Shown here in pieces: positions 37,513 to 54,254 of a DNA stretch of 64,000 nt (positions within the stretch are counted from its first letter, which is position 1; the number at the start of each line of letters is the position of its first letter). Location: positions 43,276,001-43,340,000 of the forward strand of contig OX597819.1 of assembly GCA_951406725.2 (NCBI GenBank), read 5' to 3'. Both the position numbers and the translations under genes were made by a program. Source of the stretch: Octopus vulgaris (Eukaryota). The notes beneath the pieces were generated by a model. The model did not search any database, was not told the origin of the DNA, and worked only from the letters and a program-made list of their open reading frames with translations.

Positions 37513-37582
37513 TAGATAGCTGTAGACATATAGGAAAGATAAATAATCAGCACATTTTTTTTTTTTTTTGGCGAAAACATAC

Positions 37583-37726
37583 CTCTTCACTCTCAGTTAC
37601 TAAACCCAACTTATCTTCGGAAAGATTTTCCGAGGATCGCTTCTCTTCTTCGCCTTCATCTTTATAAACTTTGACCTCGTCTTTAGAGAAAAAGTCCTCG
37701 GAGCCGCCCGAACTAACGTGCGGCAT
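37583..37726 (-). CDS. TCF: TCF/LEF (pangolin) transcription factor, coding exon 1, beta-catenin-binding domain
   Basis: accATG start, then [48 protein letters not shown]. This matches the TCF/LEF N-terminal CTNNB1-binding motif (DE.K.(F/Y)KDEGE.E..SS..L...K..LV.ESE). Ends in a phase-0 donor GAG|gtatgt. Confidence 0.96.
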
Positions 37727-37839
37727 GGTCAAAGAAAGTTTAAAAGATACGTAATTTTTGTTTTGTTTGTCTTCTTTCCTGTTTGTTTTTTCTTTTGTCT
37801 GTTTGTTATTTTTTTTTCCCCCTTTTTTTTTTAAAGATT

Positions 37840-38250
37840 AATATCAAAAGACTCCCGACACACGTTTTGAATCCGCCATGAAAATACTACGTAAAGACAT
37901 TCGAAGCTAATAGCGCCCAATTAAGAGCATGTAGCCAGCAATCGACCAATGAGCGGCTCGCTTACAAAATGGACACGTCGGTCTTACTAGCAGCAGCAGC
38001 TCCTCACATCAGAGTTACATACTGTGAGTACAACCCTCCTTTGCAGCATGGTCTTTTCACACTCGACGAGAGGCAACCACCACCACTACCATCATCATTA
38101 TTATCATCATCTTATTCAGTTTCATCATCTCCGCCACCTTCGGCAACAGCAACAATAGAGAGAAAGGAGAGGACAACGACGACGACGGATGATGATGCGG
38201 CGGCCAACAACACAACTTTTCATCATCCATCTTTCACCCCACCACAAACA
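37840..38250 (-). promoter_or_regulatory. TCF promoter / 5' UTR region
   Basis: Repeat-free, relatively CpG-rich stretch upstream of the ATG. It has two CCAAT pentamers (about 37917 and 37946) and an ATGGCG (YY1-like core) at 37874-37879. The transcription start cannot be determined. Confidence 0.55.
37844..37879 (-). other. Short upstream ORF MADSKRVSGVF*
   Basis: ATG GCG GAT TCA AAA CGT GTG TCG GGA GTC TTT TGA, ending about 118 nt upstream of the TCF ATG. Confidence 0.4.
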
Positions 38251-39003
38251 AAAAATATTATATGCACATATATATTTTCTTTACGTCCTTTCTCTGCAAA
38301 TATATAGATATATATATATAGTGTGTGTGTGTGGGTATATATCTGAGTCTTTTTTGAGTTTGTTCTTTATCGGTGATTCTGTATTTTCCCCTGTTCGTTC
38401 GTTCGCCCTCCCGCAGCTTCTCTATCAATTCCTCGTAGCGCTCCTGCGTGTGTGTGCGCCTGCGTACGTGTGACTGAGAGAGAGAGAGACTGAGCACGCG
38501 TGTATGTTGCTTCTTTTTTCCACTTTTCCCCCCTTTCAATACCTTTTACTCTTTCTCTCTCTAACTATCACTCCTCACCATTCATATTGATAGATACATA
38601 TTTCTGAGTGTGCATTTCTCAATCTCTCTCTATATATACATCATTCATTCATCAGTTCTTTATATATATATATATATATATATGTATTCGATAGCCTATT
38701 TTTTTTCAGTTTATCTTTCTACACATCTATTTTTGGGTTTTTTTCTCTTTTTTTTACCTCCAGCTCTCTCTTTCTCTCACCCACTCTATCTTTCTCTCTC
38801 TACACTTCACTTCTTTTTTTTTTCCTTTTATGTATATATATATATTTATATATACGTCCATGTGTGTAGATAAAGAATCCTGCTTTTGTTTTTCGGGTTT
38901 TTTTAACGTTTTTCTGTAATACTTGTTACCACCTTTGTAGTGATTTCTCTCTTCCTAGTCACTTTTTCATTTTCAAGTTACCTCTTTCCTTTCGCCTCTT
39001 TAC

Positions 39004-49969: not shown

Positions 49970-50123
49970 TATGTTTCTCTCCTTGTTTTTTTCTGTGTCC
50001 CTTTCTGTAGAAGAGCGTTGGCTCGAAACGTAAAAGACTTTTTCTATTCCTGAGCGTTATACTAATACATCTGTTTGTTTTCTACACCACCTGTCTTCGT
50101 CCTTTGTTATTTTCGTAAACTCT

Positions 50124-50440: not shown

Positions 50441-50732
50441 TTCAATAGAAAATCTTTATTGTCACGTAACAACTGAATCTTAGTCAGTCAGCTGATGGGC
50501 TCCACTACTTCAAATTTCTTAAAATTTAAATCCACATCTTTGTCTATGTATCTATCTTCTCTATAATGTTGCCACTTGATATGAATATTTTTCTATTAAT
50601 GGAAAACCTCTATAATTGGCTGATGAGTGCTCAGCATTTTAAAACTGTTGTAATACTTACAAAATTTAATAAAATGATGTAGTACGAAACGATCGTACCA
50701 AATTACCGGAGTCATTCTTGTTGCTTATTTTG

Positions 50733-50769
<37 letters not shown>

Positions 50770-53210: not shown

Positions 53211-53755
53211 TTGCATGTATGCATGTATTCGCTTTCTCTTTAGATTAAATTTTGACAGGACATCTCGTTGCAAAGCACTTTGTTTTAAACATCATCCTTT
53301 AAATCTTAAGAAGGGTCTTGCAGATTTTTATAGTCTAAAGAATCGTGATCATTTTGTAGCATATGAATTAAGGATTTGCATTGTTTTCCCCCAAGATCCT
53401 AAGTTCAACCATACTTTGCTTCATATATATATATATATGGTCACGAGTATGTATGCATGCATATAAATATATAAACATACATATTGTCTAATAAGTGGCC
53501 GAAATAAGATTAAGATTAATGTAAAAAATAAATAAAGCTGAAGCAAAGTAACACCAAATATACGTATAGTGCGTGTTTTTATTGGCTAAACTGTCAAAAT
53601 GACCATTCCTAAATACAACAATGTTTCAACACACGATTTCACATAAAAAAAATCTTGCAAAACAAATATATAAACGTAGCATACATATGCCTATATTTAT
53701 ACATGTAACTATAATGCATCTACATATAAACACACACACACACACACATACATAT

Positions 53756-53817
<62 letters not shown>

Positions 53818-53844
53818 GGAGTTGAACGAAGATGTTAACAAAAT

Positions 53845-53940
53845 TCCTTTACTCTCGACATATGTTTCGAAGACAACATGGTTTTATTCCAAAGGAATAA
53901 ATGGTGTAAGATGCAATCTTCTCATCAGGAAAGAAAGGGA
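53845..53940 (-). ncRNA. Type I hammerhead ribozyme (Penelope-like element type), intact core
   Basis: Minus strand reads tccctttctttc CTGATGA gaaga..tcttc GAAAC atat GTC gagagtaaagga. All core nucleotides are present, with stems I and II and a short palindromic stem III. Confidence 0.8.
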
Positions 53941-54114
53941 GCCTCTCTCAACAACAAGAAGACATAGCAATTACGATGACTGCCTACACGGTAAACAAAA
54001 CGTTAATAAGTTATAATTTATATTTTTAGGATGGCGGAATCTTGAAGCAAATATAGCTATATATAATAGCATATAAATATTGAGTTAAAAACCCTTTGGA
54101 TAGAAAAAGTTGAA

Positions 54115-54186
54115 GGTTGCCTGTTGGACACGGACCCATATCTCCTGGAAGCATGACGGACGTTCTGCCGATGGACCAAAGCAATC
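54115..54186 (-). pseudogene. Degenerate tRNA-like sequence / SINE head
   Basis: 72 nt with an acceptor-like stem GATTGCT/GGCAACC, A-box-like TGGTCCATCGG, B-box-like GGTCCGTGTCC and a downstream TTTTT. The cloverleaf is imperfect. Confidence 0.35.
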
Positions 54187-54254
54187 CCAGTTTTTACAAT
54201 TCATTTTAGAAAGTTTATTCTTACGACTTGATACAATACGTACATACATACGTC

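What the first reader, a model, noticed from the sequence alone, without database searches (positions are those of the whole stretch)
53845..53940. Intact hammerhead ribozyme 16 kb upstream of TCF
Seen: the minus strand has the complete core C3UGAUGA9 / G12AAA / GUC17 and a roughly 11-bp stem I. Stem II is 5 bp with a long insert carrying its own hairpin (tttattcc/ggaataaa), and stem III is 2 bp closed by palindromic CAUAUG. Known: Penelope-like elements and retrozymes carry minimal type I hammerheads with short palindromic stem III that can act as dimers. Inference: this is a potentially active self-cleaving RNA, cutting between 53857 and 53856, in a short coding-free element between TA tracts. 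It may mark a non-autonomous Penelope/retrozyme-like family in this genome.
Basis: partly seen in the sequence, partly recalled or inferred. Interest (0 to 1): 0.7.

Follow-up and report, generated by a model that had tools for sequence, protein, structure and literature searches.

The report
Hammerhead end of octopus Penelope retrotransposon
The hammerhead-ribozyme motif is real, but it is the 200-base broken-off end of a common protein-coding Penelope-like jumping gene (over a thousand copies in this likely-octopus genome), likely inactive here and likely near the TCF gene by chance; the one unusual trait is that this family has lost the small zinc finger thought to aim such elements at TA repeats, yet still sits in TA repeats.

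Summary
The motif is real and the coordinates are right (C3 53928, G12 53868, cut 53857/53856, minus strand). The reading as a non-autonomous, coding-free family is wrong. 53812-54011 is the 5'-truncated 3' end (pLTR) of a ~3.2-kb Penelope-like element encoding RT plus GIY-YIG; 1,149-1,704 exact-motif copies occur genome-wide. The protein is Hydra-clade-like (DKT, CxxC/CxH, no CCHH), but a ~125-residue Asn-rich tract replaces the CxCX5C linker finger. Variants shared between copies show purifying selection (pN/pS 0.12-0.42 against 0.63-0.97 for singletons), and 101 of 116 copy ends abut (TA)n. The window copy is young, solitary, 15 kb beyond the TCF RNA contigs seen, and predicted to misfold in context; a double hammerhead is the predicted working form. 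No copy ends at the cleavage site. TCF proximity is expected by chance. This scan already reported the same class (truncated Hydra-type PLE ends with hammerheads) on other DNA, including this genome; my word search of its notes found none on the lost linker finger. Verdict: ordinary transposon relic; modest interest for the linker-less, still TA-associated lineage.

The parts
53812..54011 (-). 5'-truncated 3' end (pLTR fragment) of a ~3.2-kb Penelope-like retrotransposon
   Evidence: 92-96% identity over 197 bp to the best-scoring copies; copies continue upstream into the EN/RT frame; ends seen in alignment
53942..53949 (-). Upstream strand predicted to form an 8-bp hairpin with the 5' strand of helix I (competes with the ribozyme fold)
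   Evidence: P 0.98 in this copy, -7.7 kcal/mol; conservation across subfamilies weak
53929..53938 (-). Helix I, 5' strand (10 nt)
53922..53928 (-). Catalytic core C3-U-G-A-U-G-A9
53869..53921 (-). Long irregular helix II (6 bp + 4 bp + internal loop + 8-bp hairpin at 53883-53901)
   Evidence: wobble/Watson-Crick swaps between subfamilies
53865..53868 (-). Core G12-A13-A14-A15.1
53858..53865 (-). 8-nt palindrome: 2-bp helix III as a monomer, 8-bp intermolecular helix III in a double hammerhead
   Evidence: palindrome-preserving variant CACGTG in another family
53856..53857 (-). Predicted cleavage site 3' of C17
   Evidence: cleavage not tested
53846..53856 (-). Helix I, 3' strand (one bulged U)
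53748..53814 (.). (TA)n array abutting the element's 3' end (short-end class)
54012..54225 (+). Fragment of an unrelated, older repeat at the 5' junction (not part of the element)
   Evidence: 1,360 first-look candidates, best matches 72-87% identical; no canonical hammerhead core within the matched stretch of the two relatives read
37582..37726 (-). First coding exon of TCF/LEF (context only)
   Evidence: putative RNA contigs of three runs are spliced at 37582 and run unbroken up to 38608 at most

Best explanation
This is the 200-base truncated 3' end of a protein-coding, Hydra-like Penelope retrotransposon, carrying that element's type I hammerhead motif, which is predicted to cut only as a paired (double) hammerhead and is likely inactive and functionless at this locus. 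Shown: the fragment belongs to a ~3.2-kb unit (pLTR, one RT + GIY-YIG frame, pLTR); copies end at one of two fixed points about 55 or 210 nt past the cleavage site, directly into (TA)n; none ends at the cleavage site. Inferred: the element's protein nicks TA-rich DNA and starts reverse transcription internally at one of two sites on an uncleaved tandem transcript; copying stopped after ~200 nt here, leaving the hammerhead without its ORF or a partner copy. In full tandem transcripts two pLTR hammerheads would pair through the 8-nt palindrome (predicted 7.4 kcal/mol better than two monomers), likely with help from the element's protein as shown for an anole PLE. The core is intact because the copy is young, not because the host keeps it. 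The lineage replaced the CxCX5C linker finger with an Asn-rich tract while still under purifying selection, so TA insertion likely does not need that finger.
For: Family: 2,358 first-look candidates; 1,149 and 1,704 exact matches to the two halves of the motif, reversed controls 0. Coding parent: ORF pieces with DKT, YRDD, GIY-YIG, CxxC..E..N..CxH; RT piece 32% identical to P0002, E 9e-50; PF01541 weak, E 0.011; two same-strand pLTRs 3,179 bp apart around the ORF in L037. Autonomy: pN/pS of variants shared by >=3 of 39 copies 0.21 (RT/thumb), 0.42 (linker), 0.12 (EN) against singletons 0.94, 0.97, 0.63; Fisher P 4e-13, 0.003, 6e-8. Ends: 53 short + 48 long of 116, background 11%, earliest TA start +42; 51 of 88 insertions have inverted arms. 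Youth: one difference, in an unpaired loop, from L002/L003 across the hammerhead and 3' end; 24 of 28 hammerheads in ORF-selected loci keep the core. Dimer: -50.2 against -42.8 kcal/mol, equal to the cofold minimum for the 97-nt piece. Literature: PMC8557442 section 11, PMC4209133, PMC11167929.
Against: No intact full-length ORF among the copies read (all had stops or frameshifts), so present-day activity is not shown. No significant two-sided covariation inside the family (3 of 30 pairs; 135 of 500 shuffles as high), and its 5' arm columns were fixed by the search pattern. The RT pieces have no RT Pfam match; RT identity rests on motifs and on an unnamed homolog. No tree with published Hydra proteins was built. 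Folding probabilities are model output. Lack of host function at this locus is inferred from density and youth, not tested. The window copy's own 5' end is not in a TA array.
Confidence: 0.9

Rival explanations
1. A short non-autonomous retrozyme- or SINE-like family that spreads as a defined coding-free unit.
For: Many copies are short and carry no ORF; animal retrozymes derive from PLE pLTRs (bioRxiv 10.64898/2026.07.22.740005).
Against: 5' ends are scattered from tens of bases to >1.5 kb upstream and run into the EN/RT frame. No short head-to-tail arrays among the loci read; close pairs are inverted. Same-strand pairs flank the ORF at 3.2 kb.
Confidence: 0.04
2. The copy has been co-opted as a self-cleaving or cis-regulatory element of TCF (for example, ending read-through transcripts on the TCF strand).
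For: Same strand as TCF, core intact, 16.1 kb upstream of the start codon.
Against: TCF RNA contigs reach only 38608, with no joint to upstream DNA. The chance of a family copy within 16.2 kb either side of any point is 1-3%, and 9% for the wider motif set, so hundreds of genes should have one. The copy is nearly identical to other young copies and predicted to misfold.
Confidence: 0.03
3. Same origin, but this copy is an active monomeric ribozyme, its long helix II docking on helix I to make up for the 2-bp helix III.
For: In a trimmed 97-114-nt piece helices I and II form and the active fold lies 2.2 kcal/mol above the minimum; fungal PLE hammerheads cleave as monomers (PMC4209133).
Against: Helix III P 0.02-0.03; those fungal motifs have a large helix III; metazoan PLE motifs tested as monomers did not cleave or needed protein; no copy ends at the cut site.
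Confidence: 0.1

Closest known systems
Hydra clade of C-terminal-EN Penelope-like elements, including Hydra-1_Obim of Octopus bimaculoides (Craig et al. 2021, PMC8557442)
   Same: Single RT + C-terminal GIY-YIG frame, DKT motif, no CCHH, CxxC and CxH around the conserved E and N, hammerhead near the 3' end, (TA)n insertion, inverted 5'-truncated arms; the N-terminus reads collinear with Hydra-1_Obim by eye.
   Different: CxCX5C linker replaced by a ~120-145-residue Asn-rich tract (every published row visible has the Cys motif); RWK reads RWL; unit 3.2 kb against <3 kb; core-to-core spacer 53 nt against 9-24 nt for the Hydra rows of File S2; the two 3' termini lie ~155 nt apart against a 30-40-bp tail. 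The hammerhead sequence differs from that of Hydra-1_Obim, so this is another family.
Metazoan PLE type I hammerheads with a short palindromic helix III (Cervera and de la Pena 2014, PMC4209133; Rfam RF00163)
   Same: Full core, G10.1-C11.1, palindromic helix III, pLTR location, mostly solitary copies from truncated PLEs.
   Different: Helix I 10 bp and helix II arm 53 nt, against the published 4-5 bp and 7-8 bp; scores below the Rfam gathering threshold.
PAc, Poseidon element of Anolis carolinensis (Frangieh et al. 2024, PMC11167929)
   Same: Two internal reverse-transcription start points giving a long and a short 3' end, AT-rich targets, uncleaved RNA as template.
   Different: Different clade; the start points here are inferred from genomic ends only, lie upstream of the ORF start, and are ~155 nt apart.
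Animal non-LTR retrozymes (bioRxiv 10.64898/2026.07.22.740005; PMC7229834 seen as a search listing only)
   Same: Type I hammerhead of pLTR origin.
   Different: No tandem short units and no fixed coding-free unit; the parent encodes its own RT and EN.

Membership tests
Type I hammerhead ribozyme | Core C3UGANGA9, G12AAA, U16.1-H17 | tested here: met
Type I hammerhead ribozyme | Three helices around the core, open ends in helix I | tested here: met
   Helices I and II in the MFE of the trimmed piece; helix III 2 bp or 8-bp intermolecular; 93.6% of cells paired in 45 copies against 41-50% when slid
Type I hammerhead ribozyme | Rfam RF00163 score at gathering (34 bits) | tested here: inconclusive
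   18.0 bits, whole model matched, penalised by the 49-nt insert
Type I hammerhead ribozyme | Self-cleavage at C17 | not testable with these tools
   Only contigs, no raw reads, were offered
EN+ Penelope-like element | Single frame with RT and GIY-YIG endonuclease | tested here: met
   In family copies, not in the window fragment
EN+ Penelope-like element | Pseudo-LTRs from partial tandems; inverted 5'-truncated arms; tail at one end | tested here: met
   L037, L054; 51 of 88 insertions inverted; 17 of 18 loci with both opposite-strand ends classed have one long and one short end
Hydra clade | DKT in place of DKG | tested here: met
   L037, L047, L054; DKA in L031
Hydra clade | RWK motif near the N-terminus | tested here: inconclusive
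   RWL in both full units read
Hydra clade | No CCHH; CxxC and CxH around the conserved E and N | tested here: met
Hydra clade | Linker with CxCX5C | tested here: not met
   0 of 19 in-frame linkers among 23 distinct copies; 0 of 12 more in any frame, from 14 loci of diverged subfamilies; Asn-rich instead. Filed as a Hydra-like variant, not as a member.
Hydra clade | Insertion into (TA)n | tested here: met
   101 of 116 3' ends; 11 of 36 truncated 5' ends against 9.7% background, P 4e-4
Hydra clade | RT groups with Hydra in a phylogeny | not tested
   The published proteins were only read in the supplement; no tree was built
Non-LTR retrozyme | Short coding-free monomers in head-to-tail tandem | tested here: not met

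The most novel reading that the evidence does not exclude
An octopus lineage of Hydra-type Penelope elements threw away the linker zinc finger proposed to aim PLEs at microsatellites, replaced it with an Asn-rich spacer, and went on multiplying autonomously into TA repeats: a natural knockout showing that TA targeting comes from the endonuclease core or from RNA-primer pairing. Its long-armed hammerhead carries a built-in upstream hairpin that keeps it switched off until dimer or protein contact.
Probability: 0.4. Interest if true: 0.5.

Novelty: new variant of a known kind. Interest (0 to 1): 0.3.

Why it matters
As a locus it matters little: it is one of thousands of truncated PLE ends. The family is a usable test case for two open points in PLE biology stated in PMC8557442 and PMC11167929: whether the linker finger directs microsatellite insertion, and what the pLTR hammerhead is for. 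It also shows that long-helix-II hammerheads in this genome fall below the Rfam threshold.

Tried and rejected
Rfam at gathering over the window and at E<=10 over 3 kb: no hammerhead; only microsatellite-driven miRNA-like noise. Partner copy in the window: none, apart from AAT-repeat matches; the second hammerhead at 50620(+) has a different palindrome and strand. The idea that 54012-54225 is an inverted arm or a second PLE end: it is an unrelated older repeat. The idea that misfolding is private to this copy: rejected, as it is family-wide (median P of helix I 0.02 in 64 copies; 10 of 64 fold both helices in context, 38 of 64 when trimmed). The upstream hairpin as a selected switch: only weakly supported; 79% paired, score above all 500 shuffles, but slid controls reach 76% and 0.250 against 0.276, the signal is one subfamily split, and the hairpin is weak or absent in subfamily B. 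Two-sided covariation within the family: not significant. Expression: no RNA holder listed on record; contigs of guessed-RNA runs cover the family motif but cannot be assigned to this locus or strand. Pfam gave no RT family for the ORF pieces. Lunse et al. on dimer cleavage (PMC5785218) was not held and is known here only as a reference in PMC6765202. The literature searches listed no paper on this family or on linker loss; subscription papers and Repbase/Dfam were not searchable.

Full report
Observation. The minus strand carries a complete type I hammerhead core: C3 at 53928, G12 at 53868, C17 at 53857. Helix I is 10 bp with one bulge, helix II is a 53-nt irregular arm of 18 predicted pairs, and helix III is 2 bp inside an 8-nt palindrome. 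A descriptor found 2 canonical motifs in the window against 0.01 per shuffle. Rfam Hammerhead_1 matches weakly (18 bits, E 0.044) only in a 131-nt search and not in wider ones. The TCF exon is real and lies 16.1 kb away. The organism is inferred to be an octopus from the 2.8-Gb genome, the microsatellite load and the best protein hit, named from Octopus sinensis.

It is a repeat. A genome search with 53815-54060 gave 2,358 first-look candidates, of which 40 were scored; the best match 197 bp (54011-53815) at 92-96%. Exact counts are 1,149 for the 3' half-core 21-mer and 1,704 for the 5' 17-mer, with reversed controls 0. A looser 13-mer gives 8,668 against 296 control. DNA upstream of 54011 belongs to an unrelated older repeat. 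A contig from one other dataset spans this junction; it may be the assembly's own sample.

It is the end of a coding element. Copies share sequence for variable lengths upstream, up to the 1.5-kb edge of the loci, and run into a GIY-YIG and then an RT frame. L037 and L054 are full pLTR-ORF-pLTR units of about 3.2 kb; L037 has (TA)n on both sides. All copies read are broken by stops or frameshifts. The frame has RWL, DKT, YRDD, a GIY-YIG without CCHH, and CxxC and CxH around the conserved E and N, which are the Hydra features of PMC8557442 section 11. It aligns with P0002, an unnamed protein that carries all the Hydra motifs (32% over the RT piece, E 9e-50; 28% and 32% over thumb and EN). It is a different family from the published Hydra-1_Obim, judged by eye from the supplement.

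What departs from Hydra. The published linkers visible, and P0002, have CxCX5C. Here a 120-145-residue, 31-46% Asn tract takes its place: none of 19 in-frame linkers among 23 distinct copies has CxC (26 rows, 3 duplicates, 4 frameshifted), and none of 12 linkers found in 14 loci of subfamilies 76-84% identical has CxCX5C in any frame. The O. sinensis protein P0001 turns Asn-rich at the same point. Among 39 copies, variants shared by three or more show pN/pS 0.21, 0.42 and 0.12 (RT/thumb, linker, EN) against 0.94, 0.97 and 0.63 for singletons, so the lineage multiplied with a selected protein that lacked the finger. It still associates with TA: 101 of 116 hammerhead-bearing ends run into (TA)>=6 at +35-70 or +195-245 from the cut site, background 11%, and 11 of 36 truncated 5' ends also abut TA against 9.7%. 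That points to pre-existing arrays, but only empty sites can prove it. PMC8557442 links the linker to TA insertion while noting that Chlamys elements lack it and still prefer repeats, so finger-free targeting has precedent in another clade.

How the copy likely arose. Two fixed 3' termini about 155 nt apart, 51 of 88 insertions with inverted arms, and 17 of 18 opposite-strand pairs with one long and one short end match the internal, two-site RT initiation shown for the anole PAc element, where uncleaved RNA is the template and the hammerhead cuts only with protein (PMC11167929). No copy ends at the cleavage site (earliest TA at +42), and the 5' pLTR of L037 starts ~107 nt before C3, so cleavage does not define the inserted ends. 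The window copy is a solo short-end piece. These mechanistic steps are inferred.

Ribozyme prospects. In 45 copies (the window plus 44 of 47 pattern-selected ones; 3 with large indels dropped) 93.6% of cells pair, with subfamily-level wobble/Watson-Crick swaps in helices I and II, but two-sided covariation is not above shuffles. In the 13-mer sample (14 of 30 with a 5' core), helix II variants swap A-U, G-U and G-C at one pair, and an unrelated family has a 12-13-bp helix II and the palindrome CACGTG, consistent with selection in master elements for a dimer helix III. For the trimmed motif the double hammerhead (-50.2) equals the cofold minimum and beats two monomers (-42.8); with 12 nt of upstream sequence another fold wins (-53.8). 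In native context an 8-bp upstream hairpin takes the 5' strand of helix I (P 0.98) and helices I and II drop to ~0. This holds for most of the window's subfamily but not for subfamily B, so it is a lead, not a finding. Metazoan PLE motifs tested as monomers did not cleave (PMC4209133).

TCF. Putative RNA contigs of three runs splice at 37582 and extend at most to 38608, with no upstream joint, leaving the motif 15 kb outside. A family copy is expected within 16.2 kb of a given point 1-3% of the time, and the wider motif 9%. The copy differs by one unpaired base from its nearest relatives across the hammerhead and 3' end, and 24 of 28 hammerheads in ORF-selected loci also keep the core. Intactness therefore needs no host selection.

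Sources seen. PMC8557442: passages, section 11, supplement part 2 of 59 and search hits; unread supplement parts may hold further linker variants. PMC4209133 and PMC11167929: parts 1-2 of 4. bioRxiv 10.64898/2026.07.22.740005: part 1 of 5. PMC6765202: passages. Hammerhead numbering is as in PMC4209133; the term double hammerhead is recalled. Earlier scan notes describe the same class on other DNA; none matched this sequence, this place or the linker loss.

Verdict. A real hammerhead motif in an ordinary truncated PLE end; new variant of a known kind because of the lost linker finger; interest 0.3.

Noticed in passing
window 50616-50700 (+): A second, unrelated long-helix-II type I hammerhead motif (core at 50620, palindrome CGATCG, GUA site), followed by (TA)n at 50735; likely the end of another PLE family.
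   Followed up: partly
window ~50005-50035 (+): A minimal hammerhead-like variant (altered 5' core, 4-bp helix II, GAAAC) in a repeat ending at (TA)n 50126; a near-identical stretch lies in L003.
   Followed up: no
window 53496-53688 (+): Another high-copy repeat fragment (2,226 candidates, ~91% identity, some inverted pairs) about 120 bp from the finding; not classified.
   Followed up: partly
window 54012-54225 (+): Fragment of an older ~290-bp, sometimes tandem repeat, 1,360 candidates.
   Followed up: partly
L106 and L120, around 1420-1520: An unrelated hammerhead family with a perfect 12-13-bp helix II base, 73-80-nt spacer and CACGTG palindrome.
   Followed up: partly
L003, upstream flank of the element copy: A sequence that reads like a 5S rRNA copy (recognised from memory, not tested) set between TA tracts.
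   Followed up: no
L034 6099-7241 (+): An RT fragment of a different PLE type (DKG motif) directly behind a copy of this family.
   Followed up: no
P0001: A database protein named 'myb-like protein I [Octopus sinensis]' is a fragment of a related PLE with the Asn-rich linker; the name is likely a misannotation.
   Followed up: partly
window 37726-38608 (-): The TCF 5' UTR appears to be at least 880 nt and unspliced in the contigs seen.
   Followed up: partly
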